From Lingula anatina (taxonomy: Eukaryota; Animalia; Brachiopoda): a DNA stretch of 64,000 bases. Positions 533 through 46,739 of the stretch are shown here, piece by piece. The stretch is from contig CM120646.1 in NCBI GenBank assembly GCA_051362555.1, forward strand, positions 17,608,001-17,672,000. The letters are read 5' to 3'. The notes under the pieces were generated by a model that saw only the letters and a program-made list of their open reading frames with translations, had not been told where the DNA came from and searched no databases. The position numbers were made by a program, and so were the translations under genes. Position 1 is the stretch's first letter. Each line of letters starts with the position of its first letter.

Positions 533-3065
533 TTAGCCAGTCTTGGATCTGCGGCAAACGAACCAGTGGCTTCCGATCTTCTTCTTATTGTAGACGTCCC
601 AGTAAGCATTGGGCTTTGTCGCCGAGCAAGGATCGTATGCGCAGTAGTCTGTTGCGCAGTCGGTAGGGTCGGACTTGTAGCCACACAACGCGTCTTCAGC
701 GGCCTGGATTGCTCTACGATAGGTGGCGTCGTTGTTGGCTTTGGATGAAGCCCATGCTCTGTCGTGATTGGAATCATCCAGGGTATTGTATTGGTAACCA
801 CTGGAGTATCGTTGATAAACAACCCCGCTGCAAAAAAAAAAAAAAAAAAGATGACTAGTATAAGCTCTATACGAACATTACCTCACCCACGTATTGACTA
901 ACTAATTTATTAAATATATGCCACTTACAAATACGCTCGAAAGGACTTACTTACTAATCGAATTAATTCACAAACATCTGAAAAAACTAAAAAGATCTAT
1001 AAATATCTAACCAACTACTAGTATATATATATATATATAATTATTCCAGTGATTATATGGCAATAAAGTTTATTTATAGAATCTAGTGGAACTCCCAGGT
1101 AAACCTTATTTGGGACTTATAGGGGCCTATAGTGATTGTTAATAAAACTCGGTTACTGATTTTCCATGTCTACCCGACCCGACCATTCTGCTGGCCCCCT
1201 TGTCAGGATGTTATCATAATAATCACAATAATAATATGACTAATAATAATAATGTGTTATATCGTAAAGTGCATTCCATTTTCATACATTTCAATGCACT
1301 TTACAATAAAACATAAAAGTTATTATCAACTTCAGCACTAAAACTAAAGACGATAAATAAAAGTTCTTACTTGAGTGTGTTTGGGTATCCATTGTGTTTC
1401 ACTCTGTTTACAATGGTGTACGCTACAGCCAGTTGACCAGTTATGGACTCTCCTTTGGCCTCGCCGTGGACAACCCGGCCAACAGTTTGAATGTTGGCAC
1501 TGGTGCTGTAACAGAGGGATTATCATCTTAGCATCAGTACTCGGTATGCTCCCGGTACTTTGTATGTGGTTCAAAGTATATTTAATGTGTATGTTGTACA
1601 TGTTTGAATGTATTTATGCATATGTTTACATGCATGCTCGTGTCTTTTCTTGTGTCTGCGTTTGTCCTCATTAGCACGTATTGTATGTTGCTCATAAAAA
1701 TTTAGTTCAAATATTCTACTGTATATTGAATATTTGGTTTACAGGTAATAGCTTATTAAAATACATTTGTAAAAGACAAGAAAATCAAGATCCAAACCAT
1801 AGTCCTTTTCCAGTTGCGCCGGAGCTGCCGCTTCCACTACAACTGGAACTGGTCACCAAATAGTCGCCCGCTATCCAGCCATCCTAGACAGAAAAAAATT
1901 AATAAATATTTTATTTCTATTTAATCTAAACTGTAGTATATATACATTTTATCTGTTCCCATTGTAACAGACTGCCATTTGTGTCATAAAACAACATTCT
2001 AAGTAAAAATAAAGTACAAATATTGCACAAAAATGTCGTATAAGATTTATAAGCAATCTTGCGATCAGATATAAAAGAATACAAATATTGGAGTGTTGCA
2101 AAATTCATTGAATGTCACTGTATCAGATATGAATAAAAGACCAGAATGACCTTTATTGGAGTGTTTGAGATTCCTAAAGTAAAATGTAGCTGGGTCGCTG
2201 TCACAAGCAAGATCTGATGCCAATGAAAAGAGATCAGTTTAGGGAAATATCGACAATCCGATGTCATAAAGATAAATGTTTGCTATTCATTTTGCAACGA
2301 AACGGGGCTGAGTCCACCATTTTTGTTCCGGCACGCCTCTACAATATTCCCCTATGAGGGTCATTATATCTAACTTACTTACCTTGCCATTGTAGTTCAC
2401 TTTATACCACACGTAGCCGCAGGAGGTTAACCTGGACGCTTTAGATGTGAAGCATTGGCCAGATGAAGCGGTTCCAATTTTGGTTCCACAAGCTGAAACA
2501 TAATCACCAATTATCCAATATACATGCAGACCAATTATTTCCTTGTTCCGCGGTTTGAGCGTGTTCGTTGTTTGTGTACGCACTTCTTTTGAAACATTAA
2601 AGTCCGTTTAAATTTCGGCATTTGATAATTTCAGTTGGTTCCAATAACTGGAGACACCGAGTATTTAGAAAAAAAGGTCGGAAGTCAGAGCGTGCTTTTT
2701 GCAATTTGAGAAGCAGAAATGAATCAATGGACAAGCACGTAAACGGGGAACCTTTTTTCTATATAGATCAATTCTTTAATAATATTCTGACATTTTCATA
2801 ATCTGTCAATTTAATTCTATTCAATCCTATTTTTATGGTTTTCATTTTCATTTTCATTTACCTTATATTTATTAAAAATATTACATATCTATTCAGCTCT
2901 CTAACTTTTTTCTAATCATTTTTCTTGGTAAAATCCCTTTCACTTACCTGAGCTACGCACGTTGACATTGGTCCCTGTCAAACACAAGCACTGCCCCCAG
3001 TTATAGTTAGTCGGGGTGGCCAGGCCTAAACCAACCACAGATACCAGCGCTAAAAGGAACAGCAT
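533..3065 (-). CDS. Secreted SH3b + cell-wall hydrolase (SleB/CwlJ, Hydrolase_2 family), copy 1; 5 exons, ~247 aa
   Basis: Exons 3065-2948, 2492-2383, 1883-1798, 1505-1371, 827-533. All introns are GT..AG and phase-compatible, giving 744 nt of open frame. Protein: signal peptide MLFLLALVSVVGLGLA; SH3b-like LTGTNVNVRSS...WYKVNYNGKDGWIAGDYL; Ser/Gly linker; Hydrolase_2-like VGRVVHGEAKGESITGQLAVAYTIVNRVKHNGYPNTLNGVVYQ...AAEDALCGYKSDPTDCATDY...KIGSHWF. The family call is by motif recognition (EAxGE catalytic Glu, NRV, PNTxxGVVYQ, DPT, IGxHxF). Confidence 0.88.
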
Positions 3066-8680: not shown

Positions 8681-11600
8681 TTACACTGATTTGACAATTG
8701 GGAACGTGGCAATGTACCCGGGATTGTAATCTGCATAATACAGAAGGCCGTCATGGGGGTTGTAATCTAACATGGTGTTGTATGTACCAGGTTGTTTGAA
8801 CGAGATACTGTTCGAGGGAAGCGACTCTTGTTTCCCGGTGTTGGTGTCATAAGTATAGCGAATGTAAATGAATGTTTCACTGTAGGATTTCGTGGCGTAA
8901 AGCACGCCACATTTCATGAACGTGTTTCCAACTATCCTGTAATTGATGGTCGTCTCCCATGATTGCTCCACGTTGAGAGTGTCCAGGTTAATCTTGGCGA
9001 TGACCAGGTTACAGTTCGCAGTCACGTTCCCGTACACCAACCACAGCCCGTATTCGTCCACGGCAAAGTCAGTGGAAGCGTAACCGCCCCAACCATAGGT
9101 GCATCTGTTGCCACTGTCTACGTCTTTCAAGTGAATCTCTGCCATAAGCTTCATTTTCTGGATATCATATTTAGCAATTTTCTGAGTTCCATGAGGCTGA
9201 AAATACAAACTGCCTCTGTGTACGACATGTCCGGTACCGGCCCACCTGTATGGAAGTGTAATTGACGCACTTTGTATACCACGCTTCATGTCTTCAATTG
9301 TTTCGAATTCAGCGATCACATTTTCTGTAGAATATCCTTTGAAAAACCACACTCGGTCAGCATAGCTCAGGTTAGTTGGCTGAGAGTCTTTCATCCAAGA
9401 AGAGTGCAGGGACCTTGCTGGGCTATACTGAAAGACCATTGACATGTTCCCAATTCTAATAGTGCCGCCAGACAGGCATTTCGTCCCTATAAAAACAATA
9501 ATGTGTTACATAATAAAATTTACTACAGAGACAATTAATGATCAAATTGCTTCACAGTGTTTTAAAACACTTAACAGTAATATCTAATTCTTATTGAAAA
9601 GAAAATTTTGTTTAAATCGACTAAACGGTATTTTTGCCTATGTCTAGAAAACACGTCATTTTCTCTTTATAATCAAGTGCTGATGCAAGGTAAGTATTAA
9701 AATACCAAATTATCCATATTTATATATTGATGTTAAATCATTACTTTACAGCCTTAAAGTCGTTAAAATATAGACGTAGAGTCTATAGGCCTAGATAATT
9801 GAACGCATCTGTTCCACTGTGTGTAGGAACATTCCCACCATGACGTCACACTAGTCCACGTGCACCCACCTTCGTCACACGTGGCACCGGTAAAACCAGG
9901 CAAGCAGGCGCAGACAGCAGTATCCCCGCTGGCCGAGCACGTCCCGTTATTTTGACACGGTTGACTGTCACATGGATCAGGAGCTTAAATGACGAAACAT
10001 ATTGGTTTATTTTATTTAGGACGATGCCAAAATTGAACGTGGCGATACTGAAACCCAAATCAGCCTTTGCCGTTAGTTTTATAGAACATGTTTTCCATAA
10101 GCAAAACTAAAAAGTAAAGAAATGAACCTCGATAAAAATGAATTCGCAGCCACTACAAATTTAAAGATTAAGTTGATTCGTATCATCACTACCCATTAGA
10201 AGTGTTAATATATCAAGAATAAAGTTTCACTTATATTTAAAAGATGGAAACGTGGTTTATCTCTTGTAATGTAATCAACATAGGGTTTTCTGATAACACC
10301 TTTCTATTTAGGCGCCTTTAAAACGGATTCATGATATCTTGTTTCACCTTACCCTGCGTCGTGACTTTCATTGACCCGGCTTTGCACTTCAAGTAACTTT
10401 GCGTCAAGAAATCTAGAGTGTGCTGAGCAAGGATGATCCTAAATTCTATCTCCTCCGATGACGCGCCAAAGTACAGCTGTCTTTTCCCTACACATGCAAG
10501 ATAAACAATAATTTAAATTTCCTTCGATCTAGATCTAAAAAAATATCATTTCAATCTTCATAACGAAATTACAAAAGACAATACCAGACGCAAAGTTATT
10601 TCCAAGTGCTTTTTATGTTGTTTGAACGGGATCCCATGTGTGACTCTTGTTTCCCAGTGTTGGTGATATATAGGTATAGAGGATGTAAGTGGACATTTCA
10701 CTGTAGGAATTCGTGGCGTAAAGCACGCCACATTTCATGAAAGTGTTTCCCAAGCTTCCACTGCCAATAGTCGTCGGCCACAAATTCTCCACGTTGAGAG
10801 TATCGGGGTTGATCTTGGTGATGACCAGGTTACAGTTCGCAATCACGTTCCCGTACACCAACCACAGCCCGTATTCGTCCACGGCAAAGTCAGTGGAAGC
10901 GTAACCGTCCCACGGATAAGTACATCTGTTGCCCCCGTCTACGTCTCTCAATGATGCCTCAATCATGGCATTTCTGTTTTTGAGGTCGAACTTGATTATG
11001 GTCTTCGTAAGGGCACGGATAAAGTAAACAGAATTCCTGTATACAACATGTCCAGTGCCTGCCCAGTTGTATGGGAGTCTGATGGTCTCACGTGAGTTTT
11101 TGCGCTTCATGGCCTCTACTGAGTCGAATACAACCAAGGGGTTGTTTCTCACAGATCCTCCGAAAAACCACACTCTGCCGAACTGTGGTTGGGAGTCTCT
11201 CATCCACGCAGACTGTCTGGAATTGGCCGGGCTGTACTGGAAAACCACTGAAATGTTCCCTATTGTATTGTAAGCGTGCCGCTTTGCCTGCATCCCTTTC
11301 CTTTTTAAAGTGAAAACAATTCCCATTAAAGCCTCGGTCACAACCGGCCGTACGGGCTCTTACGGGTTGTTTGCGTTCAAATTTTGCACAGAATCTCACG
11401 TCCCACGCAAGTTCTTCTAACGCAATTTCGAGTTCGCAGACAGCCCGTAACCACGTACGGAGGATGTTGGACATGTCCAAAAGATTCTACGAATAGCCTG
11501 CGTAACTTGCTTCCCTCGCACAGAGTTAACGAGAGAGGCGCGCGTTGTGCAAGACGCACGTCGCAAGCAATGAAGGATCAATTGCCCTTTGCGTGTTGAG

Positions 11601-13521
11601 TAAGGCGCACGCCCTCACAACTCTGCTCTTAGTCTTTTACGTTCTTATTTTACAGGCCGGTCACAGCAGGTTATGATAAAAGGCATATTATCAAATGTTT
11701 CAGAGATAGCTTTTGGTGTGCCACAAGGCAGTGTTCTAGGACCTCTTGTGTTTTGCATGTATACCTTACCAATTGGGGCCATACTAAGACATCATAACAT
11801 TGGCTATCATATTTATGCTGATGACACACAGATTTTTACTTGTTGCAATCTAGAAAATCCAAATGAATCTATTGATATTTTGTCTGAATGTATTGATGAT
11901 CTTCGCGGGTGGCTGATTAGTAATAAGTTGAAAATTAACGATGGAAAGTCTGAACGTTTGGTAATAAGTCAGCCACATAATCGTATGATAGCACAACAAA
12001 TTCAGCTCAAAATTGGATCAAGCATTATTAAGCCAACACCACCTCATGCAAGAAATCTTGGTGTATTTTTTGATGGATCACTTTGTATGAACAAACATAT
12101 TGCCAGTGTATGAGGGTCAGCGGTTTTTAACATTAGGAACATAAGTGCAATTCGCAATCAGTTGTCTGACTCTGCTGCAGCCACAGTTATAAATTGTATA
12201 GTTACATCTCGATTAGATTACTGCAACTACATTTTATACGGTTGTCCAAAGAAACAAATTGCTAGACTGCAGCGCATTCAAAATATTTCGGCCAGATTAT
12301 TAACTCGGACATCCACAAGTATACACATCTCCCCAGTTTTAAAAAGTTTACACCGGCTACCTCTACAAGCCAGGATTTTATTCAAATTTTTAGTTTTTAC
12401 TCACGATGCTTTTTATGGATTGGCACCAACATACATCAATGAATTAGTCACTATGTTCCAATGCGTAATCTGCGGACTGTAGACCAATTGCTACTCAACC
12501 CAGTAAAAATGTGATTAAAAACCTACGGTGATATATCTTTTAAAGCTGCAGGTCCAAAGGAATGGAATCTATTACCGCTGGAAATCCGAGCAATTCAGTC
12601 TACCAAACATTTTTAAAAAGAACTAAAAACATACCTTTTTTAGGAAATATTTTGATTAACTCTTAATTGGTTTTATAAATCTTGTATTAATTGCATTTAA
12701 TTGTATGGAATAATGGCTGTTTTACCTAGATTTTATTTATGATATTTTATGTAGTATTTTTTATGATATTTTATGTAATGTCTACTGAACATTTTAAATG
12801 GATTTTAGACTTAAAATAAATTTATTATTTATTATTATTACAACTAACGAACAAAGTGGAGAGCACACCGGAAATGGGCCACACGTGCGTCACCCCCAAC
12901 TAAAATTACCGCCACGTCACGTGAAAAAAAGTTAATTATTTAGGCTAGTCGTTGCGGTAATTTTGGTTGGCAGTGTGAAACATCACAAACAGAGTCACCA
13001 TGGGACATTGAAGTCCGTTTAACCAAGTTTCGTTAATTAGGAGGGAAATGACGTTTAGATATCTGAAATGAGTGTTTAATTTCATCCGACATTTTCGATT
13101 AGTCGAAGCAATCATCTTGACATTTATACATTATTTTTTGATAACCCAGAGAACCATCTTGGTTCTGGGATGTAACATTGGATGTTATGCACCAATTTGG
13201 GATTCCTGTAGTGAGCGTGGATAGTAAAAGTACGTTCATGCATGTAACATTTATAGAAACAACACTGAATCAAAACAAGTCAGTGATTATAATGGCTGGG
13301 TAGTTTTATTACTTCTGACGGCAGATATATACCGTAATTAAAGTCAATTCAACTTAGGATCAAGAATGTATCTTGCTAGTATCAACAGAAAAAAGAGAAT
13401 GAGAACCGTACAATGCTACATAGGATAATTTCAATAATGCAGAGCTGTAAAACATGGACTGCCAGTAAGAAATTTAAAGTGAAAAACACCCGAGTCAGGA
13501 TATGATGCGTACGTGTACCTT

Positions 13522-17813: not shown

Positions 17814-19982
17814 TTTGTTATTTCCACGTTGGCATGCATTACTGTATTACCAAACTGGCAAAGATTCCCCGCAAAGCCTGCTGGGCAAACGCACACAAAG
17901 TGACCATGGCGGTTTTGACACGTGGATCCAGCGGTGCATGGGTTACTAGCACACTCATCAAGGTCTGAGAAAATGCACAGACCAATAAATCGGTTATTGA
18001 TTTCAAGACAATACAATGCAAAAAATATTATCAAATGCATAATAAAAAACTGATTACTTGAACATTTCAATACGACTCAGCATGTATATACAACATTTAA
18101 TAACATGGTTACCATTGGTATTATTAATCAAATAAATCTTCCATAATGACTTTGCTAATATTTATGTGTCTGTGTCATGACCAATAAAAAATTATCAGTT
18201 ATAATCCCCATGATTGCACACCGACACTTACAAAATGCATTCATGGCCATTTCATTTTTGATAGAAGAACAAGAATTAATAAATTTCAGAATAATGACCC
18301 AGTTTTGTACCCAACTCTTATCTTATAGTCAAGGCTAAACTTACTTAGCTTACCTTAGGACACGAAAAAATAAATAAAATCATTAAGAACAAGTTAATTA
18401 TTACTATTCTTATAAGTTTGTATTTTGTTTTATCTTAAACTTCAATATCAAAATAACATCAGACTACGGAGCGTCCCCTTCAGAATACTGACAAATACGG
18501 TAGTTCCTATACCGTTTGTATTCCGTGACAGTTAAACAAACTTAAATCATCTATGGCAATTGCCAATACAAAATGAACAAAAGAAAAGTAGTGAAAACAA
18601 TTACTTTACGTTTTCGACATTTCAAATAAAAATATTTACCATTCTCGCACAAATTTCCTGTAAATCCAGCCAAGCACACGCATTGGAAAGAACCCGGATG
18701 TTTTTTGCACCTGGCACCATTCACACATGGGGCGCTTGCACATTCATCGATGTCTGGAAAACATATGTCATTCACGTGTACACTTCATTATCAATTGCTG
18801 ATACCCGGTAGGTATTAAAATACCAAATTACCCATAGCAATATATTGCTGTTAAATCATTAACTTAACGTCTTAAAGTCATTTTAAGTATAGATATAGAG
18901 TCTATAGATAATTTAACTCATCTGTTCCACTCTATGTAGAACTGTTATCACTGTGACGTCATACTAGTCCACGTGCACCCACCTATAGCACACGTGGCGC
19001 CGGTAAAACCAGGCAGGCAGGTGCAGATAGCAGTGTCCCCGCTGGCCGAGCACGTCCCGTTATTTTGACACGGTTGACTGTAACATGGATCGGGAACTAA
19101 AAGCAGCGACAAATATTAAGAAAGCAAGGATTTGATAGATTCATTTCATGATATCTAGAACGATGTCAAAATTGAATGACGCTATGCTGAAACCCAAACT
19201 GTCCGCTGTCGTTTAACATATTGAATACATTGTACGTCAACTAAAATTGAAGCTAACCTCGAAAATGCAAGTCATCGTACATGTATAATTGCAAATCTAA
19301 GCTTATGCGTATCAATTTTACCCAGAGGTAGAAATGTTAATAAATTAAGTATCAAGTTTCACTTACATTTAAAAGATGGAAACGGGCCCTACCTCTTGTA
19401 ATATAATAAACAGAAGGTGTTCTGATACCCTTTACTATTTTGGCTCCTTTAAAACGGATTCATGATATCTTATGTTACCTTACCTGGTGTCGTGACTTTC
19501 AGTGACCCGGCTTTGCACTTCAAGTAACTTTGCGTCAAGAAATCTAGAGTGTGCTTAGCAAGGCTGGTCCTAAATTCTATCTCCTCCGATGACACGCCAA
19601 AGTACAGCTGTCTTTTTCCTACGCATGCCAGATAATTAATAATTTAAATTTCCTTCGATCTAAAAAAATATCATTTCAATCTTTATTACGAAATTACAAA
19701 ACACAACACCAGACACAAAATTAATTCCAAGTGCTTTTTATGCCAAAATGTAATAAAACTATGATCTGCTATCTATATTCAAATAATTAAACAAAAATTT
19801 ATTAAGTTATATTGACATTTTATCAATTCTGTTCAATTTTTATTGGTACTTTTATTGGAATGAATTTCTTCCGATGGCTAACATATAAAAATAAAAAAAT
19901 TAATATCTTTAAACATGCATGATTTCGAAATGACGGATCCAGCTTGCCAGTAGTAAAACATCGGGCATCATAATTTCACACA

Positions 19983-20263: not shown

Positions 20264-22033
20264 AACGAAAAGATGGGTGCTTTCTGTACTACATGTATGA
20301 CAGCTTAAACCCCAGTGTGAGGATAATGTTCTCGTCGGTCGCAGTTCATAAAGAAATGTGTGGGCCAATCGTGGTGATTAGCAGTGATCATGACATAGCT
20401 TTGCAGATCGATTTCCTGAGACCGGTGTCAGGGTGTAAGCCAAAGATTGTCACGTCTCCTGATAACATTGTGAACTTGAACACATGAATTTCGTTGTTGT
20501 TCTTCAACAGACCTTGGTGTAATATTTTAAAATTTGTTTCATGCTTGATGAAATTTGACTTTATCTACACGTAGAATACAGTCACCTCAAAAGTAGAGCA
20601 AAGAACTGTGAAATCTAAATCTTTTTAAGGATTGGGCAATGCAAACAAGAATTTTGTTTCCATTTTAAGATTTTCAAAGAGAATGCTTGATACGACTGCG
20701 CTATTTTGTTTGGGAGGAAGAGCGGGTCCCAAATCCACTTTGATTCTCTTATGCAGATTATATTAATATGCAGTAAATTGAAAAGCATATTTGAAGAAAT
20801 GTACGGGGGGTACTCATCGACAGCTGTGACCCGACATTTAGACAACGGAGACGCATCTATCAGTTTTATCATCCTACATTTAATAAGTGTCATTTTCTCA
20901 TTTTGAGAGAAAGAGAGAGGGAGAGAGAGAGATTATTTTCGTCAAAAAGAAAGCTTGTGATGTATGCATGACTGCCAGAAATATGATGCATCTACATGTA
21001 CACTGTATGAAAACGTGCTGATAAATAAGGTTTATTATAAGTCCCCTATCATTTAAGACCAATGTCAATGAAAAAATGCAATTCCTTCAAAACCCAGAAT
21101 CCAAACACTTGATTCTTTAATTTATGTTGGATCCGCCCAAACCGTCTGTTGGTAGGATTTGTAGGGCCCAGAAAGGGGCCGATTTGGGATAATAAAGTGA
21201 GTAGTGAAATGGCACTTACGGGGTAGGGCAAGACCGATGGCACGGTATTAAATAATGAAAAAATAGTTATGAACGCACTTAGCGGTTTGAAGCAAGACTG
21301 ATAGAACGATATGAAAAAATGAAAAAAAAAAAAAAACGGTTGATTAGAACGTACTTATTACACTGAAAATTAGCGGCCTAGTTTGAGACTGATCACGCGA
21401 CATTATTTATTCAGGAGTTGGCACAACTACATGTACAACTTGTGGGTTTAGAAGCTGGAGAGGGATTCGTTGTTATCTAAAGGTCTTTAATTTGGAAAGA
21501 TTGTGCTTTTAAATCCCCCTGTTTAATTCGAAAGATACAAGAACTGTAGTATCTGCACTGAGTGGAAAAGTTACTCCCGTTTTTATGGACCGTTTTTCTA
21601 CAATAGTAAGACACATATGCATAAGATTGTGCACGTTGAAAAAAATTCAGTTTTATTTTTAATATATCTCCCTAAAATATTCTCAGGATGTACCGTTTAT
21701 GGCTAGCCTTCTGTGCAATCTAAAGCTAATATAAACAACAGTAAAGAGTACAGAGAATGACCATTTATTTCATAATCTTAGTTTTACCAACTTTCATTGT
21801 GCTTGAAGCTTCATTTTACCTACATTAAAAAGATAATTTGACCGCAGATGCATATAACAGCAATTACTCCGAAAGTGAAGGAATTTTACTTCTCAAGAAA
21901 TGAAAAATTTTGCTCAGTCAGCTATTCGTAAACACAGGTGTACAGTAGGCCTGCACACAAGGGTTTATTAACACTTGCATAAAGCATATTTGCAACGTTA
22001 TTTGATGAGAACGCAGATTCTTCTCATTTTTTC

Positions 22034-23759
22034 TTAACCTCTCTTTGGGCTGCGGCAAACAAACCAATGGTTCCCGATCTTCCTCTTATTGTAGACGTCC
22101 CAGTAACGATTAGATCTTGTCGCCGAGCAAGGATCGTACGCGCAGTAGTCTGTTGCGCAGCCAGTAGGATCTGACCTGTAGCCACACAACGCGTCTTTAG
22201 CGGCCAGGATTGCCCTACGATAGGTGGCGTCATTGTTGGCTTTGGACGTAGCCCAAGCTCTGTCGTGACGGGGTTCACTGAGTGTGTTGTATTGGTAACC
22301 ACCGGAGTATCGTTGGTACACCACCTTACTGTAGAAAAAGTAAAAGTAATGATTTCCCTCATGCACCCACTCACTGGCTAACGTATTTACTCGTCTACTG
22401 GCTTACTACATGTAACTTACTAATCAGTGGACAACAGAACCGATCACCTAACTAATGATCGAACTTACATGTACGCCTACTAATATCAAGGAGCTCTCAC
22501 AAAACCCCTCCCTAAAACTTCTGAGCTTAGTAACTGAATGACTTATCAAAAGACATACCAAAGAAATAGTTGATTGCAATCTTATGAAGCATGATACTAT
22601 TTTATCTTCTCTGACGGACATGTACAATGTAGGAGGAATCCGAGATAGGCGTTTTTTGTTTAGATTTATACATGTAGTAATGACAAGCAAGTACATGTAG
22701 TAAGCAAACTGGCTGTTACTTATTAGTCCATTGCTATTTATCTATTGCGTCTATCTATACAAGCAAGTTCGATAGGTATACGGTAGTTGGTTAACACGCC
22801 ACTGTCCATTACAATAAAAATTTTAAAAATCTGATAAAACGACTACTTTTAAAATCATTTAAATCGCAGCGTGTGTGTATACTGAAAAGCGAAATTGTTG
22901 CAAAAGCGTACACAATCAAGTAAGATGGACCTCTGAATATGACATCGGCAGATTAACGGATAAACAGTTAGACAAACTTGACTGTAGTCTATTTACCCGA
23001 ATAAGATGTCTATAGCCAGCAATTGCAAGTGGCGTAGAATCTAGAACAAATTTTGATTTACACTGGATCCAATCCCGCTAAAAGGCAATTACTTTGCCCC
23101 CACCCCTATCCCGCTAACGGGCGTTATTTACAATGGCGTTCGTTGTTAAGGTAAACATATTCTTACTTGAGTGTGTTCGGGTATCCTCCGTGATTCACTC
23201 TGTTTACAATGGTGTACGCCACAGCCAGTTGACCAGTAAAGGACTCTCCTCTGGCCTCACCGTGGACAACACGGCCAACAGTTTGAAAGTTGGCACTGGT
23301 GCTGTAATAGAGGGGTTAGTATATTAATCAACAGCGATGAAATGTACACTTTGCATGTGCTGTGGAATTTCAGCATAAATAAAAGATGAAAAAGTACACC
23401 TGCCTGTGCGTATGTGTGTTCATGTTTTTTGTATGCATGCGTGTCTGCGTATGTGTGTGGGTTCGCTTCCGTGTGGATGTATGCACATGTGCATAAGGCA
23501 TCCGAGAATTCATAAACCAGTGCACGGATGCGTGCAAATGCACGGGTGAGCCTTATGTTCTCTTTTACATTAAACAAATTTAACCTTAATCCTTATACTC
23601 TGTAATGTATATATGAAGATCAACAGCTTATTTAAAATACATTCTAAATAATAAGAAAAGCTAAATACACTGTACTTACCATAAGTTTTTCCCAGTTGCA
23701 CCGGAGCTGGTCAAATAACAATATAGCAAAACGAGGAATGAAAAATTGAAAATTTTCAT
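22034..23759 (-). CDS. Secreted cell-wall hydrolase (Hydrolase_2), copy 2, lacking SH3b; 3 exons, ~169 aa
   Basis: Exons 23759-23680 (MKIFNFSFLVLL...SSGATGKNL), 23301-23167 (CTSANFQTVGRVVHGEARGESFTGQLAVAYTIVNRVNHGGYPNTL), 22328-22034 (KVVYQRYSGGYQY...KIGNHWFVCRSPKRG). Open frame, with the same intron positions and exon sizes (135, 295 nt) as copy 1. Confidence 0.87.
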
Positions 23760-23872
23760 GATGTTAACGTTGACTTAAACTAACAGCTTTTTCAATCGAA
23801 TGCTACGTATAACGACCTCCTGCAACAGTAGACTACAGAGAAAACTGCGCCGCTCTCAAGGAAAACCACTGG

Positions 23873-23880
23873 TTTATATA
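23873..23880 (-). promoter_or_regulatory. TATA box of hydrolase copy 2
   Basis: TATATAAA on the minus strand ~115 nt upstream of the ATG, conserved with 29051-29058 in a homologous context. Confidence 0.55.
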
Positions 23881-24141
23881 ACGCACTTTTGGCGCCGAAG
23901 AAACCACACCTCCTTGATTTATCCTTTTCCTCTAGAAACGTGATTCGCCAAGATCGGATAGAAATGGAAGGGTTGATTGGTTAACTTTCGATCTCAATTT
24001 ACATGAGAACATAGAAGGTACTGTAGCTAGTATTATTTGTATTTACAGTTGACTACAGGTAGCATGCGTTTCTGTATCCAGCTCTCACTTGCTAAATTCA
24101 TATACTTTAATTAACATGTTTCAATACTCTAAAGGCACCCT

Positions 24142-24176
<35 letters not shown>

Positions 24177-25080
24177 TTTTGTAAAACGTGTTTAAAGCAC
24201 CCAGGATACCACGTGATTTCGCATTTTAGTACAGTGGTGAAAAGAAAGATAAAATGAAAAATGAAAGATGAAATGAAAAATAAAGGGACAAGCGGGGATA
24301 ATGGTGCTAAAACTAAATTAAAAACGAGTTTTTGGTCACGCCACTTTTTACAAGCTATATATATATTATAGGGGTATTGAAGGTATAGAAAAACACTGAG
24401 AAACGAAGTGCTTGTAATAGGTAACCATATACCCCAGTACAACATGTGCATGTTTTTTAATGGCGTATGCGGCCACCTTGAAATTTTTCAGAATTCTCAA
24501 ACTAGGATTTCTTACTACTTTTAGTGTGTCATTTTTTGTTGGAAACCACTGTGGTAAAATAACAACTGATGCAATTTGTATCCAGATTGGCACAAAAATG
24601 TCTATTTAAGAAGGGATTCTAGAAGAACTGACCTTATTGTTGACCTAAGAATATTCGTGTCACTGTCTACATTTTCAGCAAGGATAGTGCAAAAATCAAC
24701 TGAAATCATGAGACACATACATGCTATACTTGTAAGAAGAGACGTGTTTTAATATAATGAATTATCATTTTTATAAACAAGGATGAAAAGAAACCTCGCG
24801 TCTGTCCATCTTGATAAGCACAGTGTCTGGTTCCTACAGCACGTTTGCACAGACACGTGCCTTTTCAAATACACGTCTTCAGGATGCGTGTCTTTTGACT
24901 TAGAATAAATGAATAGATACATGAATAAATAAAGAAACAACGAAAAAACCAAGAACACTATATCATATCTCTGTATGTCTACTAATCCGTACAAAAGAAA
25001 GGAATGGAGAGAGACCGTGATATCTGATCTCAAGTTTGGACGAAGAATACAGAACTCACAAAATACAATTTAGAAGAGAA

Positions 25081-25930
25081 CAATGATTTTCTGTACAACT
25101 CCGAGAAAGGGTCAGTCCCGAGAAGGGGTTTGCGAAAGGAGACGACACTTAAGTCTGATCGTAAAAGCGACAGAGTTGATGCATCACAACAGGTGGGATA
25201 GAAGGCCTAGTCTGTTGAACCCATGACGGAAAAGACACGTAGTGTCCAGGTAGATTAATCACATAAGATGACTTTGATTTAATTCTGCTTTAATTCTATT
25301 ATTATTATAACTGTCAAACTGGATAAATACACTATGACCTTGGTGAGACTGAGAAAAACAAAACAGTGCGTTGTCTGAAATATCCCCAAATGTTTTTCAG
25401 TGATAAGGTTGGTCCTAGGGGATGGGCCAGGAACCCGGTACCAAGTGACAGTTTGCCTGATATCATTTTAACCGTCTGCTACTGCAAACATCGGTTCAAA
25501 AAGATATTTGGATATATTCCTCGTGTGGTAAAATAACAGTAACTGCGAAATAAGATATATCGTGGCTGATGAAATTTGCAAGAAATGAGATAAACGGCTC
25601 ATGTTTTACTGTTTATTCAGCATATCCTGCAGTCGCGTTAGTGCACAAAACTGGTCATATAACTCTTCGGGATTCAAACTTGAGAGGTCTCTCTTTAAAT
25701 CTCTCTCAAAATCTCACTGAAAACTGTAGCCTCTGATTAAGAAAGCAAAATGAATTGGATTCTTGATTTATTTTGTATCCGCAGGCTTTTTGTCTCTTTC
25801 AAAGCAATTACGATGTCAGCTGAAATCATGGTTCAGACTACCATCTTTTGTAGAGCATGTCTGGCCACCAATGTTCCTAAGAATGGTGATGCCACAGTGG
25901 TGTAACATGAACAGTGCGTGAATTTAGGTA
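25081..25930 (+). pseudogene. Decayed duplicate of GBP-like exons 1-2
   Basis: 25081-25250 aligns by eye to 31781-31960 (caatgatttYctgtacaacYccgagaaagg...gtagtgtccaggta) and 25781-25930 aligns to 32731-32875. Both have indels and no usable frame. Confidence 0.85.
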
Positions 25931-25941
25931 CCTGTAGATTG

Positions 25942-25992
<51 letters not shown>

Positions 25993-26008
25993 GGGGTAGG
26001 GTAGGGGT

Positions 26009-26274
26009 CAGGAGCGGATGGTTTGAAGGGGGGGTACGGAAACGACAGACCTCGGATGCAAAGCCGACCATCGCCCCTTTGGTGTGGGGTTCGGGGCCTG
26101 CGAAAAATTTTTGGTGTTTTGGAGAGAAAACAGTGCCCCTTGGTACGGTTTAGAACTAAAATTAAGCTAGTGAAAATTCTTATTTAAAGAGGGTAATATT
26201 GGTGTGATATATTTTTCAGAAACCGAGGGTGGGGGTCAGGACCCCCTGACCCCCCCCTCTTAATCCGCCACTTG
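26009..26274. mobile_element. Degenerate MITE of the CAGGGGCGGAT-terminus type
   Basis: Ends caggagcggat...atccgccacttg, with an internal GGGGGTCAGGACCCCC hairpin. It is absent from the paralogous GBP intron. Confidence 0.55.
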
Positions 26275-27599
26275 GGTTGCAGTGCAAACACATGTGTAGG
26301 AGCTGTGTTCTACCATATTTACTTTCTTTTCAAAATGATAGCTAAAACCAATGTGTGCCAGGATTTGTAATTCACTTCCAAAGAAATTTTGTTTTTGGTG
26401 TATGGCCGTGTCCATTTATTTTTATACTTTAAAAGACTTGTGAACAACAAAGTGTGTAAATAAACAAATTGTTTGGGAAAATGTTATAAAAAGATAGACA
26501 TTAAATGCAGAAACTCGGCCCACAAATATTGTCTACAAGGTAAACTAATGTCCAGAAAATAATTTCATCTTTGTTTTGCAGTAGGAATAAACTGTATACG
26601 TAAAGGGGTACAGCAGTAATGCTTTTCAATTTCAGGTGGTTTACTTCCAATATTTCGATGACTATCGGGGGAAGAGGATATCTAGATACCTTTTCCCTTA
26701 ACCTGAAGTAAGATGTAAGAAGGGTGTAAATTTGATTGCGGTTTCTTACCACAAAACCCGCTTGGTGCCGCATGTGAGCCTAGAGTAAATTATTATTTTA
26801 AGCAAATGTACCTCTTATCTGTCACAGACACGTTGTATCCCCTTTGTATTACGAAATAAAAAAACATTGTTCAAACATTGCATTTCTGTGCGATGAGAAC
26901 GTGGAGAAATGCACGTAATCGCTGACTCGGTTTAATCCAAGCGAGTACATAACAACCTTCATTTTAATATTAACAGGGACATAAAGAAATGAATCATAAA
27001 AGAATTTTTTTTTCATTATCAGAGTGGCCATCTACATGCACAGTGTATTTTATTGCCTTAAAGCGTGATTTTTATTGTTATTGTAGACAATTTTAAACGA
27101 AAACGACAGACATAGGTTTAGCTCTTATTTGAATATTCAAGAGGTTACCTAAATAAAATAAGATGTAATTTACTTCGATACAATTCTAACATGCAAAAGA
27201 AAACAGTAGTGGATAACTCGATTGCAAAATACACGTGTAGACACAATCGCTATTGGACTCGTGACTTTAAAAGAGCACATTCTGATGCTAAAAATATATG
27301 AGTGCTGAACGTCCTGCAGTTATATTCCGAAATTTGAGGTTAATTGCGACCAGAATCTTATCTACCACATTCAAGAGACTTTTTCCCCAGTTTACCGAAT
27401 TTTACGCACTTTTACTGGGAGAAGAATCTTTCAAATCCTTCTCAAAGGTCTCTTCTCCTCCTCCCACTAATATGCCGGTGACAGAGAGTCCAGCATGACA
27501 GACAGTCCACTTCCCATCCCACATGATGGATTCTGACAAGCAACACCATTGTTCCAACGTTTTTATTTCTTGGCTTTCTTGTCTGAAGGCGAAATCTTG

Positions 27600-28930
27600 T
27601 TACACTGATTGGATAATTGGAAACGTGGCAAAGTATACATCTTTGTAATCTGCATAATACAGAAGACCATCATGTGGGTTGTAATCTAACATGGTGTTGT
27701 ATTTACCAGGTTGTTTGAACGGGATCCTATTCGAGGGAAGCGACTCTTGTTTCCCAGTGTTGGTGTCATAGGTAAAACTGATGTAAGTGGATGTATCACT
27801 GTAGGAATTCGTGGCGTAAAGCACTCCGCATTTCATGAACGTGTTTCCAACGCTCGTGTATGGAATAGTCGTCGACCACGACATCTCCACGTTGAGAGTG
27901 TCCGGGTTCATCTTGGCAATGACCAACTTACAGCTATCATTTTTATTCGCGTAAACTAACCACAGTCCGAACTCATCCACGGCAAAATCAGTGGTAGTGT
28001 AACCGCCCCATTGATATGGGCAATTGCTTCCCGCATCCACATCGTCCATCTGCTTCTCTACCATGATCTTCATTTTCAGGGGATTATACTTAATGATATT
28101 CTGCGTATTTAATCGACGAAAGTATACATTGCCCCAATACACGACATGGCCCGTGCCAGCAAAGTAATAGGGAAGTGTAAATGACGCAGATTGAGTACCT
28201 TGCTTCATAGCTGTGAAAGTGTCGAACACAACAACTTTGTTGTAGTAATGCCCACGAAAAAAATAAACTTTACCAGCTTCTTTAAGAGTTAATGGTTGAG
28301 AATCCTTCATCCAAGCGGAGTGATAAGATCTGGCAGTGGTATACTGGAATAAGGTGGAAGCTTTTTCTATGCGTATTTTGCTTTTCGAAGAACAGTTCAC
28401 TGTAACAAGGAATAGACGAGCCATTTAGTATAGTTGTTAATCAAGAATATTTTTGTCATCTTACCATTTGAATACAAGATTTGAAAAATTATACACCATT
28501 TATGTCCAATTCGGTCAAATGTACATAACCAAGAAGCATATATAGGGGCTAAATATGACATGCACAATGTATACCAATTACACGCCCAAGATTTTGAAAG
28601 GGACTTACCTCGTCTGCAGTCCAAAAGAGCTTGCTTCATAAATTTTAGGGAATGTTTTGCCAGTTGCAGTTCAAAGTCGATGTTTTCTTCTTCAGCGACA
28701 AGCCCTCTTTTGCCAACATATTTATTCATCTTGACAAAGCGTTCTCTCTTGGCGAAGAAACCTGGACAGTTTTCAGAAATCTGATTCGTGACATACTCAA
28801 GGCGGTGGTTGATGTGAAATAATTCAATCATCTTCTTGAACAATGCCTGAGCCCCGCTGTAAGCATTTACGGCCGCGGGAGCAAATGCCACAACCAGCGA
28901 AACGAGGAGTGAAAAAGGTAGACTTTTCAT
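27600..28930 (-). CDS. Secreted olfactomedin-domain protein E; 2 exons, ~373 aa
   Basis: Exon 28930-28609 (signal peptide MKSLPFSLLVSLVVAFAPAAVNA, helical region with ENCP...GKR...LDCR) and OLF exon 28399-27600, joined by a phase-1 GT..AG intron. TATATAAA at 29051-29058. Confidence 0.9.
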
Positions 28931-29530
28931 GGTATTGCAGTTGACTTAAATTTTAAAGCAGCTTCAGCTGAAGAGAGCGTATGACGTCCTACGGAACAAG
29001 CTGTCTTTGACGAACAGTGTTTACTGCACCGCTCATCTAAAAAGCGCTGGTTTATATACCTTACGTTTTGCGCAGAAGAGATTAATTAAACGAAATCGAC
29101 CAATCCATTTTTTCTAGAGTCGTGATTCGCTACGATCGGAAAGAGATAGAGGGTTTGGGAGGGTACGTTCGACTTCAAATTATGTGAGGATATAAATGGT
29201 ATTTATTGGTTTGCAATAAGCATGCAGACAATAAAGAGAAAAGTCATAGTTTCATTGCAAATATACAAACTTGAAGTCGTTAGAGTAATAGCGATAGTTT
29301 GCAGTTAAGTTAGACTAAATTGTATTGCTGCATCCAATATGCACTTGTCAATTTTATATAATCAAAATGGAGCCCTGCTCAATAATGCTAGGACATCTTT
29401 ATTTTAAAATAAAACTGTTAAAGTTGGTCTTCCTTGGATGAGTACGCGATTAGTAGCGCACCGCAGTTCTCACTCTCGCTTATCCAAAACAAAACGATCT
29501 TTTAACTTAAATCTGCTCATCTTTAAATGC

Positions 29531-29532
<2 letters not shown>

Positions 29533-29580
<48 letters not shown>

Positions 29581-29581
29581 T
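29533..29581. repeat. (ATT)n microsatellite
   Basis: Seen directly. Confidence 0.95.
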
Positions 29582-30383
29582 AGAGTTTACAGTAAAAAAG
29601 AAAATAAATGAATAAAATGAATATGCAATATGCACAAAACAAGGTACTGTATGTCTGCCAACAATCATGGAATCCCCATGCTGTTATTTCAAATAAATAA
29701 ATGGTTATCATTTAGAAATTTTGAAACAGATGTTTTAAAGCTAATTCTCAAAAACAAGGAAAGCAGCAAAAAAATTCTTTTTATGCGCCGGTTCTGCTGC
29801 ATCGATAATACCCTTCTTAAAGACCACTGATTGGGCAAAATCTAAATAACAAACTAGATCCGAAACTTTCATTGGTACGTAAGATGCATGATTTTTGGAA
29901 AGCTAAATTATGGCAAATTTCGTATTTTAACACAAAAACAGCCTTGGTTCTTTTCAATATGGCCTTACCCCAGGAGAAACTTCTAGAAGAACTGACCTCT
30001 TTGTTTAGCTGAGAATGTGCAAGTCACTGTCTATATTTTTAGCAAAGATAAACTGAAATCATGAGAAACTGTTATAATCTTTGCTTATGCTCCAACTATT
30101 TGAATTATTTACGTAAACAAGGATGAAAAGAATCTTTGCATCTGTCCATCTTGATATGCATAGCGTCTGTCGTGTCGTGTCGTGTCGTGTCAAATACACG
30201 TTATAAGGACACACGTCTTTCGATTTGAGAGTATTGAATAGATAAATAAAAAAATAAATAAATAAATATACATATAATTGATTAACATATGAATTGATAT
30301 AGAATATACATCAAAACGTTGAGTATCAGTGTCACAAAGCACGAATACATACATACGCGCTCGTTCGCACACATACACATACG

Positions 30384-30386
<3 letters not shown>

Positions 30387-30459
<73 letters not shown>

Positions 30460-30505
30460 AGAGAGAGAGAGAGAGAGAAAAGAGAGAGAGAGAGAGAGAG
30501 AGAGA
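30387..30505. repeat. Compound (GA)n microsatellite
   Basis: Seen directly; it produces the spurious RERE/SLSL ORFs in the track. Confidence 0.95.
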
Positions 30506-31133
30506 AAGGATCCTACAAAGTTAAAAGACAATACAATCGAGCTTTAGTGGTGCTAAAATTCATTAAAACGGATTTTGATCACGCATTCGGACATTGCTAT
30601 GATCTTTTGATACAGTCTAAACGATCTCCATTACACTAATATGTGTCCGAACGTAAATTTGCATTTCAGTTTTATAGCATGTACGTGAGATGCGTTAATT
30701 TATTTGTACGCTAATTTCTGGAAAAACTGGCTTTGTCACTTTAATTTTCAATACGCCCATGCCTTACACATCATCTTTGCTTGTTGGAAAAGATGTGCTC
30801 AAACTAACTGCATTTTAATGTAAACACGTTTGAATAGAAACTTGGTATCTCTCCATCTTGATAAGGACCGCGTCGGGTTGCTTCAGCACGTTGCGTTAAC
30901 ACGTGTGTCCTCAGAAGTCACGTCTTTCGAAATTAGAATAAATACAATAAATAAATAAATATAAATAAATAAATAAATAAATAAATACACAAATAAATAT
31001 TTAACATTGAAATTATTTCAAAAGGCAAAACGTTGATCATCATTGTAATATAATTGAATAGAAACAAAGCACATATATTCACAAACAACCACACACACAC
31101 ACACACACACACGCAGAGAGATACAATGTATCT

Positions 31134-31175
<42 letters not shown>

Positions 31176-31691
31176 CAAAACCCTGCATCTGCAAATATTA
31201 AAATATTTAAGATCAAAATCACAGGCTGTGATTCTATTCAAACACTTGTTTATTGGAATTCGATACACTGCAAAACAATGCCCTTTATCGCCCAATACTA
31301 CTTAACCCAAGCCTCAGCTGATCTTCAAAGAATAACCGATCAATCATATAAATATCGATTTCCGCGATTTCGATTCCCCGTCGCAAACAAAGGAGATTTA
31401 AGATTGCACAATCAATATAGTGCTTTGATGAGTGGGCGTCGCCTGATTAGACCCTATAGCCACCTGTGGAGATCTTAGTAGGCTGGGGGGAAGGTTGGGC
31501 TACTGTACATAACCGTGAACGTACATGTAGTTGGTCCGTATAATAGCGAGTTATGGAGAGAGCGTGATTTTCAACATTATTTAAGTTTGGATGAAGTATA
31601 TTAAACCCCAAAAATAAGTGAAATAAGTAAAAATTACCGTGTCATCTGATTAGTAAAATACGGGGTAAATCGCAGGCAAATCGTCGCTCAG

Positions 31692-34600
31692 ATGGCCAGT
31701 TCGGAGCTGCGAAAACGAGGATTCCGCGTGGAGCCCTTCACGAAAGACTGTCCGCAGTTGTCCATTCCGTTGATTTTACCCAATGATTTCCTGTACAACC
31801 CCGAGAAAGGATCAGTCCTGGACGTGGTTGGGGAGAGAAGACGACAGTTAAATCTGATCGAAAAAGCGGCCGAGTTGATAGGTGGTATAGAGGGCCCGGT
31901 CTGTGTGATGGCCGTCTGTGGGGAACCCATGGCAGGAAAGGCGTATGTAGTGTCCAGGTAAGTAAATCACAAAAACCTGAATTTTTGTTTTATTCTGTTG
32001 AAATCCTGCAATTTATTTATCTATTTATTTGTCTCAGTCTTCACAACATGGTCATAGTAAGTGAAGCAGTGCGTTTTCTGGAATTTCCTCAAATATATTA
32101 AATGATAAGGTTGATCCTAGTGGAATTCTGAAAAACGAAAAAAAAGGAGAATTGTTTGCGGACAAGCTGAATGCTGAATTTGAAGCAACATGGGCGAAGA
32201 GGAGGGCAGGAACTCGAGCAGTCCCATCAGCAATATATACATGTACCTGTGAGAACTGCAGTCTCGGATTGCCCTGATCAGCCACCAGAAAAGGTGTTCG
32301 AAGGGGGGTAAGCCATGGACATAGTCCAACTGTTGCCTTCGAGGGGATGCCTCCTATCTTTGCAATCACTAGATGCGGACTGACTGTGCCGTCTGTCGTT
32401 TCTCACATCTCCAACAACAGTCGAGCGAAATTGTCTTGTGGTAAAATTACACTATAGTGTAAAATGATATATCGTGGGTGATGAATTTTGCAAGGAATAT
32501 GATAAGCGCGTCATATTTTCATGTTTATGAAAAGTTGCGTTTGAGCACGGCGTTGAGCTGTTCATATTGTATGTCAATTTATTAACACACGATGCAAATT
32601 TTAGACTCTCTTTCTCTCTCTCTCTCTCTCTCGCACACACACACACACACACGCACACACACACGTAAAACCATAACTTTTAATCTTAATTTAAAAACAA
32701 ATTGTCTCGAAGCTTAATATATTTTATATCCACAGACTTCTTGGCTCTTCCAAAGCGTTTACTGTGTCTGCTGAGTTCATGGTTCAGACAACCAAACCTT
32801 GTGGAGCATGGCTAGGCACCAGCGTTCTTAAGAGTGATGACGTCACAGTGGTTTTACTGCATGTCAATTTAGGTAGTGTCTTATGTGTGTGCAGGGGGGG
32901 TGCAGTGTATCTTGTATCGTTTAATTCTTGATTTATTTTTTGTTTGTTTGTTTATTCATCCCATTTGTGTGTGCGTGTGTTTGCGTTGCATTCATGCATG
33001 TGTGTTGATGCGATTGATCTAAAGGAATAGTCTGCCAGTGAGGTTTCGTAAAAAAAAAAGCATTTTGTGGAATTTTGTGACCTATCAGGCATAAATATAC
33101 CTGTACCGCGCAGCTGTACTCTGTCGTTTAAGACCATATTTATTTTATTTTCTAAAAGTTAGGTAAAAGCCATAAAATGACTGCCAGAATTTCTTTTCCA
33201 CTTTAAAATAAATTTCTTGTTTTTTAATTTTTTTTTTGGGGGGGGGGGAGTAGGGGGGTCATTTATTTCATAACTTCAAAAGACTTGTAAACATGCCAAA
33301 ATTAAGGTAGATTATAAATGCAGAAACCTGACTCACAAATGTGTCCACAAGGTACATGTAAATCGATATCCACAAAAAATATAAAATGTGTTATGAACTT
33401 AAAAATGAAAAAGTAAATTTCTATAATCAGCAGTTAGCATGGAAACTGTTGTCACCTGTTTTGGTGCCTCGGGTAAGGATGCTATCCGTGCAGTTCTTTA
33501 TCTTAATACCTGTACTGCGCATTTGGATTAGTAAGGCGCATTTCGATCGTTCTTAAGCAAATGTGTGTTGCATGTACATGTACAGGTGTGTAGTACTGCA
33601 CTATCTCAGTAAGACGTATGATTGGGACTTCTTACTACTATAACTATTGGGCGCTGCGTGCAAACTTATATTCAATGATTGCCTTTTTTAAAGTTTGATA
33701 CTTAAGGCAAGGGAATTTTTTATATCCCATATCTGCCGTACATCTTGTTGCTACCGGTATATAGACATGCATGCTGCTTCTCCTTTTCATTTTAACGTTG
33801 AATGCATGACTGGGCTTAATCTAAATTAAAAGAGTTAAAAACATATTTGAGTTCAACAGGCCTGAGTTAGAAGATCGATTGTAGGCTAGAAAAATCACTT
33901 TGAATGCATGATATCAAGTCACCGATACGTATATACTGTACTACCGCCTCGTTGACTGTAAAAGCCGCATAAATATTACTATAAAATGTTAAATCTGCAT
34001 GCTATAGATTGTATCGATTTTTGACCTTTCTTAACAACACCATTTTGTCAAATCTAATTAATTTAAAAAGTTTGGTTTGTCTGGAGTAACTTGATTTTTA
34101 AGCGACAAATAACAAAATTCCAAAGTGTGACAGGTAAACCTGTTGTTACTTACAACTGCAATCTTTATGTGAGATAAATAATGGTATTTTCTAGATTTTG
34201 AAGACGACGCCGGGCTATTGTTATCCACCCTGTTGATCAGCTCTGTCGTCGTCTACAACACCCTGGGAATCCCGTCGAAAAAGGATCTGAACAAACTGAA
34301 GTAAGTTCTTGTTTTGTATAAATTAACCAATAAATTGACAGGGCCGCGTTCTTGTTGAAGATGAGAGGATATTACTTCCTGCGAATTTACATGTGTTGAG
34401 ATTTACTTGTATTATATTGTTAGAGATGTAATTTTCTACGCCTTTATTGGTAGTGGGGGTATTATTTTTTACTGGTAAACACACCTCGTCCCAGCTTGGA
34501 CAAGTGCAAATAGGTTAATTACCTCCGCCAAGGAGGTTATGTTTTCACCCCTGTTTGTCTGTTTGTTTGTCTGTCTGTCTGTCTGTCATCAACATAACTC

Positions 34601-46473: not shown

Positions 46474-46739
46474 CAGGCCTACCCAACTACCAGACTCGGC
46501 ACATAAGGATCCTGAATTAACCAGTATATATCGGACCACACTACCCGTTTTCAAGGTGTGTGTCAGATCGCATTTCGCAGTATCAGACAGAACACCGACC
46601 GGATGAGCCTGCGGTCGTCCTACAAAATTTCTTCTGGGGTATGATACTCCGAAATGCGATCTGACACACACCTTGAAAACGGGTAGTGTGGTCCGATATA
46701 CCGGTTAATTCAGGATCCTTATGTAGTTGGGTAGGCCTG
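46474..46739. mobile_element. Foldback MITE with ~110-bp TIRs and 5-bp TSD (AACAG)
   Basis: Termini CAGGCCTACCCAACTAC / GTAGTTGGGTAGGCCTG with long near-perfect inverted arms. AACAG lies at 46469-46473 and 46740-46744. Confidence 0.88.

What the first reader, a model, noticed from the sequence alone, without database searches (positions are those of the whole stretch)
22034..24030. Chimeric gene birth: hydrolase copy 2 captured the promoter, 5' UTR and signal peptide of olfactomedin gene E
Seen: 23712-24030 is homologous to 28882-29200. Examples: agcaaaacgaggaatgaaaaattgaaaattttcatg vs agcgaaacgaggagtgaaaaaggtagacttttcatg, and shared gttgacttaaa, ctggtttatata and tctaga..cgtgattcgc.a.gatcgga. 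In contrast, 23680-23709 matches the linker end of hydrolase-1 exon 3 (cagttgc.ccggagctg). The in-frame junction lies inside exon 1 near 23710 and removes the SH3b domain. Inference: unequal recombination produced an SH3b-less enzyme under olfactomedin regulation, and the open frame suggests it was retained by selection.
Basis: partly seen in the sequence, partly recalled or inferred. Interest (0 to 1): 0.82.

Follow-up and report, generated by a model that had tools for sequence, protein, structure and literature searches.

The report
Chimeric lamp-shell antibacterial enzyme gene
In the lamp shell Lingula, a transcribed and spliced gene joins a start shared with the neighbouring olfactomedin gene to the catalytic exons of a bacterial-type cell-wall hydrolase, likely making a secreted antibacterial enzyme; it is a good new example of a familiar way that genes are born.

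Summary
The chimera is real. 23712-24020 aligns with 28882-29201, 23709-23576 with hydrolase-1 (H1) exon 3 and intron, and the copied block runs on to 26542/33354, including a decayed copy of the neighbouring gene's first exon, which marks the H2 side as the likely copy. H2 is a 169-codon, three-exon open frame. It is already annotated in Lingula anatina RefSeq as uncharacterised. RNA reads cross the junction and splice both introns in 2 of 3 runs. It keeps the SleB-type fold and glutamate, and shows purifying selection (dN/dS 0.34).

Three corrections. (1) Only about 16 codons of the signal peptide are olfactomedin-derived. (2) No homology spans the junction, so classic unequal crossing-over is unsupported. 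(3) 'Olfactomedin regulation' is not seen: OLF-E exon 1 had no reads in 4 of 4 runs, including both that express H2 (divergent alleles are a caveat). The SH3b-less product is the usual form in molluscs. Direction is not proven without an outgroup. Verdict: new member of a known kind.

The parts
23680..23850 (-). H2 exon 1: 5' UTR, ATG at 23759, 26 codons plus 2 bases (hybrid signal peptide and linker end)
   Evidence: RNA depth to about 23850 and joint 23680>23301
23712..24020 (-). OLF-E-like part: proximal promoter, 5' UTR, codons 1 to about 16; homologous to 28882-29201
   Evidence: 67-75% identity over aligned columns
23874..23880 (-). TATA box (TATATAA), also present in OLF-E at 29058; about 30 bases above the farthest RNA coverage
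23931..23958 (-). Best-conserved upstream stretch shared with OLF-E; possible promoter element, function untested
   Evidence: alignment
23576..23709 (-). Hydrolase-like part: Ser/Gly linker end, splice donor and start of intron; homologous to H1 1698-1827
23167..23301 (-). H2 exon 2, holds the GEA motif with Glu42; 12 differences from H1 exon 4 in 135 bases
22034..22328 (-). H2 exon 3 coding part to the stop; 46 differences from H1 exon 5 in 295 bases; 3' UTR continues to at least 21950
24617..26542 (.). Rest of the duplicated upstream block, collinear with 29981-33354
25081..25249 (+). Decayed copy of part of exon 1 of the head-to-head neighbour gene (5 indels, frame broken): polarity marker
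25786..25906 (+). Copy of exon 2 of the neighbour gene, 77% identical, no internal gap, no stop in the parent's frame
27600..28930 (-). OLF-E, likely 5' donor: exon 1 coding 28930-28609, exon 2 28399-27600 with OLF domain
533..3065 (-). H1, paralogue with signal peptide, SH3b, linker and Hydrolase_2 (five exons); matches P0001
31692..31958 (+). Intact exon 1 of the neighbour gene (GBP-like; label from recalled motifs, only a weak PDB hit, E 0.74, for a later exon)

Best explanation
H2 is a transcribed, spliced gene whose promoter region, 5' UTR and first codons are homologous to olfactomedin gene E and whose remaining exons are homologous to hydrolase H1; it likely arose when a duplicated copy of the OLF-E upstream region was joined, without long homology, to the linker exon of an H1-like gene, and it is predicted to encode a secreted SleB-type lytic transglycosylase that cuts bacterial peptidoglycan. 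Shown: the two-source anatomy, the open frame, spliced transcripts, the family assignment and constraint on the coding exons. Inferred: a local duplication of about 4.5 kb (from an intron of the neighbour gene to OLF-E codon 16) fused to hydrolase exon 3, either as duplication followed by deletion or as one replication template-switching event; loss of the SH3b wall-binding module at that step; a hybrid signal peptide (OLF n- and h-region, hydrolase linker as cleavage region); survival because it gave the enzyme an expression domain that, today, differs from both parents in the runs tested. Predicted: antibacterial role, by analogy with ladybird cwh1 and the Vibrio-induced mussel gene.
For: Anatomy. 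Polarity: the block on the H2 side holds a frame-broken copy of the neighbour's exon 1 (5 indels in 158 aligned bases) while the OLF-E side holds the intact gene. Transcription: X19 444 reads, X16 31 reads, both introns spliced CT..AC, X16 strand pattern fits a minus-strand RNA. Selection: H1 vs H2 dN 0.10, dS 0.30, ratio 0.34, Fisher p 0.0002; among the 17 listed X19 coding variants 9 silent and 8 replacement, p 0.012 against 3:1; H1/H2 differ at 1 of 64 family-conserved columns and 22 of 77 variable ones; no indel in 430 bases of exons 2-3 against 31 gaps in 1071 bases of seven duplicated non-coding or dead blocks; similar branch lengths, 0.13 and 0.11. Family: Pfam Hydrolase_2 61.6 bits over cut-off 27, PDB SleB E 8.5e-11 with Glu42 aligned and invariant in 24 of 24 rows, model pLDDT 87 matching only SleB at E<=0.001. 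SH3b ancestry: signal-plus-SH3b modules of other animals end in the same kind of Ser/Gly tail, whereas named mollusc hydrolases go from signal peptide straight to the catalytic domain.
Against: No outgroup genome was available (no genome held; H1 and H2 are sisters with no other brachiopod row), so direction rests on internal evidence. OLF-E's similarity to other olfactomedin first exons starts only at residue 28, after the signal peptide, and its 5' region matches none of the other OLF genes in 1-21000, so the shared start is not proven to be native to olfactomedin. The proximal promoter is no better conserved (68-70%) than other duplicated blocks (70-84%). The SH3b module is mobile in animals, so H1 could have gained it late. 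No enzyme or secretion test exists.
Confidence: 0.7

Rival explanations
1. H2 took the OLF-E 5' end, but its ancestor never had SH3b: H1 gained the mobile SH3b module after the H1/H2 split, so the event in H2 was a promoter and signal-peptide swap only.
For: 1 of 21 hydrolase hits carries SH3_3 (H1 itself); the same module sits in front of amidase/PGRP and other domains in other animals.
Against: H2 keeps a Ser/Gly linker end like the tail of that module; no close Lingula donor of the module turned up among 135-433 aa proteins; SH3_3 plus Hydrolase_2 is also a bacterial and phage architecture.
Confidence: 0.13
2. The direction is reversed: the shared promoter and start belonged to a short hydrolase gene beside the GBP-like gene; after duplication the first copy had its body replaced by an olfactomedin, so OLF-E is the chimera.
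For: OLF-E's signal peptide and promoter resemble no other OLF gene in the window; H2 has the family's usual architecture; H2 is expressed and OLF-E was not seen expressed.
Against: Needs two fusion events of similar age (OLF-E gains the start; H1 gains a new start with SH3b); H2 sits on the side with the decayed neighbour exon; OLF-E is an old paralogue (57-65% identical to the others) whose signal peptides could simply have diverged.
Confidence: 0.1
3. One reading: unequal crossing-over made the gene and it is co-regulated with OLF-E.
For: TATA box and an upstream stretch are shared; the arrangement is tandem.
Against: No extended homology at the junction; OLF-E exon 1 had no reads where H2 had 444 and 31.
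Confidence: 0.05
4. H2 is a transcribed pseudogene or an assembly artefact.
For: 8 replacement changes among 17 listed variants; C-terminus differs by two residues between assemblies.
Against: Junction in DNA contigs and RNA of separate studies; two RefSeq models; constraint tests.
Confidence: 0.02

Closest known systems
Chimeric genes from tandem duplication in Drosophila yakuba (PMC5460883; passages read)
   Same: 5' end of one gene joined to the 3' end of a neighbour; the paper reports 24 of 76 chimeras with raised expression and a duplication-plus-secondary-deletion case, with parental genes unchanged.
   Different: Those are young polymorphisms; H2 is older (non-coding K about 0.2-0.4), shared by lineages roughly 5% apart in the reads, and under purifying selection.
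Antarctic fish AFGP from trypsinogen and AFPIII from sialic acid synthase (PMC3449122; passages read)
   Same: A 5' end and first exon reused to give a secreted product; hybrid first exon.
   Different: Those made new protein functions from one parent gene; H2 has two parents and keeps an old catalytic domain.
Ladybird cwh genes, Hydrolase_2 (PMC7807722; passages and section 5 read)
   Same: Same Pfam family in an animal, with introns; recombinant cwh1 limited Bacillus subtilis growth.
   Different: The active form tested lacked a signal peptide; the paper covers ecdysozoans and has 0 occurrences of Lingula, mollus- or SH3 in the main text; no chimeric origin.
Bivalve 'spore cortex-lytic enzyme-like' proteins (Crassostrea, Ostrea, Potamilus, Mytilus)
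   Same: Signal peptide plus Hydrolase_2, 49-67% identical to H2 for the named rows; a mussel gene of that name is strongly induced by Vibrio (PMC6697025, passages).
   Different: Their signal peptides are not known to be borrowed; that the mussel transcript is the same family was not checked by sequence.
Bacillus SleB catalytic domain / CwlJ (PDB 4F55, 4FET; PMC12331253 passages)
   Same: Fold and glutamate; CwlJ is a natural catalytic-domain-only member, as H2 is.
   Different: 27-29% identity; spore germination role; H2 has extra cysteines and a eukaryotic signal peptide.

Membership tests
Hydrolase_2 (PF07486) / SleB-type lytic transglycosylase | Pfam score above the curated cut-off | tested here: met
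   61.6 bits vs 27 for P0024
Hydrolase_2 (PF07486) / SleB-type lytic transglycosylase | Catalytic glutamate kept | tested here: met
   Glu42 aligns with the first Glu of SleB's GESRGE and is invariant in 24 of 24 rows; that this Glu is the catalytic one is recalled, PMC12331253 says only that SleB has an essential catalytic glutamate
Hydrolase_2 (PF07486) / SleB-type lytic transglycosylase | SleB fold | tested here: met
   3 of 3 matches at E<=0.001 are SleB, TM-score 0.61-0.66 by target
Hydrolase_2 (PF07486) / SleB-type lytic transglycosylase | Cleaves peptidoglycan to 1,6-anhydro products | not testable with these tools
   needs an assay
Chimeric duplicate gene | Reading frame drawn from two different genes | tested here: met
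Chimeric duplicate gene | One transcript across the junction | tested here: met
   runs X16 and X19
Chimeric duplicate gene | Derived status shown against an outgroup | tested here: inconclusive
   only internal polarity; no other brachiopod row in the tree
Unequal crossing-over (non-allelic homologous recombination) | Extended homology between the parents at the junction | tested here: not met
   longest shared word 5 bases, chance 0.71
Promoter capture with donor-like expression | Co-expression with the donor gene | tested here: not met
   0 reads on OLF-E exon 1 in X16 and X19; limited by two runs of unknown tissue and by divergent OLF-E alleles
Secreted protein | Cleaved signal peptide | tested here: inconclusive
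   hydrophobic core, best 9-residue Kyte-Doolittle mean 2.46, weaker than OLF-E and H1 at 3.09; no SignalP-type tool here

The most novel reading that the evidence does not exclude
The Lingula cluster is a working site of module shuffling for antibacterial enzymes: a bacterial-type hydrolase first carried a mobile animal SH3b module (H1), then a copy shed it and took a neighbour's promoter and leader (H2), and the chimera became the main expressed form in a tissue or state where both parents are nearly silent, with a different substrate range (for example not needing SH3b-type wall binding).
Probability: 0.3. Interest if true: 0.6.

Novelty: new member of a known kind. Interest (0 to 1): 0.4.

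Why it matters
It is a checked case of gene birth by 5'-end capture outside flies and vertebrates, with both parents, a polarity marker and expression data within 33 kb. It gives a natural paired test, H1 versus H2, of what an SH3b module adds to an animal SleB-type enzyme. It also points to a spiralian branch of Hydrolase_2 enzymes that the ladybird paper's main text does not mention. The mechanism class and the product's architecture are both familiar, which caps the interest.

Tried and rejected
Microhomology at the junction: looked plausible by eye, but a shared word of 5 or more bases arises in 71% of 2000 shuffles; dropped. An [olfactomedin + hydrolase] unit duplicated as a pair: OLF-E's 3' flank matches OLF-A only to 27529/3808 and not H1's promoter, and OLF-E is no closer to OLF-A (64%) than to B or D; not supported. 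Ordering the two duplications by divergence: ranges overlap (K 0.18-0.43 for the upstream blocks, dS 0.30 and intron K 0.33-0.44 for H1/H2; alignment-dependent, and the 24021-24616 block does not align above shuffles). Promoter conservation above background: not seen. Whole-genome search: no genome held. No RNA holder was indexed; RNA runs came by species label. X13 gave 0 reads on H2. Earlier findings: none. One OLF-D translation was in the wrong frame and was ignored. GBP label: Pfam found nothing on three single exons, PDB one weak hit and none relevant for another exon. Literature: searches listed no paper on this gene; the library lacks most subscription papers and no supplements were read, including those of Lingula genome papers. 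Complex prediction was not used: no binding is claimed.

Full report
Setting. The window is animal DNA (37% GC). Its first 30 kb hold, on the minus strand, a tandem array of olfactomedin-domain genes (A-E; Pfam OLF E 2e-61 and 5e-65 for E and A) and two Hydrolase_2 genes: H1 (3065-533) and H2 (23759-22034). H1 matches P0001, Lingula anatina LOC106178286; H2 matches P0024 and P0004 (XP_013383169.1, XP_013404488.1), both 'uncharacterized' and two residues shorter at the C-terminus. The gene is thus annotated; I found no paper describing its origin.

Observation. H2 24020-23712 aligns with OLF-E 29201-28882 (score 199, shuffle maximum 59), and H2 23709-23576 with H1 1827-1698 (88 against 41). The first 36 coding bases match OLF-E at 28 positions and H1 at 9. 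Similarity to OLF-E ends near codon 16, with a one-base gap just before; the rest of exon 1 is the hydrolase Ser/Gly linker end and splice donor. The three exons give an open frame of 169 codons. The H2 5' region matches no other OLF gene in 1-21000 and nothing in 30000-64000.

Extent and polarity. The copy is larger than reported: collinear blocks run from 23712 to 26542 against 28882 to 33354. On the OLF-E side this covers exons 1-2 of a head-to-head plus-strand gene (GBP-like by recalled motifs; weak support) that continues beyond 36 kb. On the H2 side exon 1 is partial with five indels and nothing follows exon 2. The H2 side is therefore the copy of that upstream segment (inference). This does not strictly prove which body, olfactomedin or hydrolase, first sat behind the promoter: OLF-E resembles other OLF first exons only from residue 28 on. 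The reversed reading needs two fusions and is given 0.1.

Mechanism of origin. The parents share no long homology at the junction and the 5-base words there are chance-level, so homologous unequal crossing-over is unsupported. Duplication followed by deletion, or one template-switching event, fits; these cannot be told apart here. Divergences do not order the events.

Transcription. Laid at 80% likeness on 21950-24110, X19 gave 444 reads, X16 31, X13 none (6-25% of each run read). Both introns are spliced (78 and 75 reads in X19; 9 and 1 in X16), depth is level across the junction, no loose ends lie at 23710, and coverage stops near 23850, 30 bases below the TATA box. X19 reads are mostly 90-99% alike, so a diverged lineage shares the chimera. 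On 26020-29500 at 88% likeness, the bins from 28126 to 29500, covering OLF-E exon 1 and 5' UTR, had zero depth in 4 of 4 runs; exon-2 reads fit only partly, and the X19 letters match OLF-A at 11 of 14 listed sites. So H2 is on where OLF-E is not seen.

Selection. H1 versus H2 over 141 codons: dN 0.10, dS 0.30; this averages both lineages. H2-specific signs: 9 silent and 8 replacement changes among the 17 X19 coding variants shown (p 0.012; partial list), 1 of 64 conserved against 22 of 77 variable columns differing from H1, no indels in 430 coding bases against 31 gaps in 1071 duplicated non-coding or dead bases, and branch lengths of 0.13 (H2) and 0.11 (H1) in a tree of 24 proteins where the two are sisters at 100/99. 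This shows constraint, not positive selection for the fusion.

Protein. H2 passes the Pfam cut-off, aligns with SleB with Glu42 kept, and its model (P0024 first in A1; pLDDT 87) matches only SleB structures at E<=0.001. Named bivalve relatives are mostly signal peptide plus catalytic domain; only H1 among 21 hits has SH3_3, and one oyster form has a different Cys-rich front (P0026). So the SH3b-less product is the common animal form. H1's SH3b scores just under the Pfam cut-off (25.3 against 27). A full-library search found the same signal-plus-SH3b module, at 35-48% identity, in the annelid Owenia, the bivalve Dreissena and unnamed records, two of them in front of Amidase_2, with Ser/Gly tails like the linker that H2 retains (10 such rows scanned, 9 read). 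SH3_3 plus Hydrolase_2 clusters also exist in bacteria and phages (a lead only). Loss of SH3b in H2 is the likelier reading, late gain in H1 is not excluded. Function is predicted by analogy: ladybird cwh1 limits B. subtilis growth (PMC7807722, section 5), and a mussel transcript of the same name rises about 4000-fold after Vibrio injection (PMC6697025, passages).

Verdict. Observation confirmed; interpretation partly supported. Chimeric genes by 5' capture after tandem duplication are an established class (PMC5460883, PMC3449122; passages read). This is a well-supported new member, with a modest twist in that its expression appears to differ from both parents. Interest 0.4.

Noticed in passing
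window 1798-3065 (H1 exons 1-3): H1's signal-plus-SH3b front belongs to a mobile animal module also found before amidase/PGRP and other domains in an annelid, a bivalve and unnamed records. H1 may itself be an older chimera and is the rarer architecture.
   Followed up: partly
window 1790-1798: H1 intron 3 appears to use a weak donor (GTTTGG); the H2 equivalent is GTAAGT, and the alignment shows a 7-base gap in H1 there. The RefSeq protein P0001 implies the weak site is used.
   Followed up: no
window 10613-12650: OLF-C's last exon looks truncated at about 10613 and a decayed reverse-transcriptase element (RVT_1, E 2e-12) lies at about 11600-12650; 9640-10617 duplicates 18750-19742, so OLF-B/C is itself a mosaic.
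   Followed up: no
window 28609-28930: OLF-E encodes in one exon what OLF-A, C and D appear to split over two, and an OLF-E-like start in another assembly (P0025) is only 84% identical at the protein level: fast-evolving alleles or a further paralogue.
   Followed up: partly
   Followed up: no
P0023, P0025: Older gene models fuse H1 with an olfactomedin-EGF gene and MsrB, and OLF-E with H2; probably annotation errors, but they suggest the same gene order in another assembly.
   Followed up: no
window 26020-26270: A short interspersed repeat draws partial RNA reads from elsewhere in all four runs.
   Followed up: no
window 46474-46739: A 266-base self-inverted (palindromic) element, 77% arm identity, possibly a MITE.
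   Followed up: no
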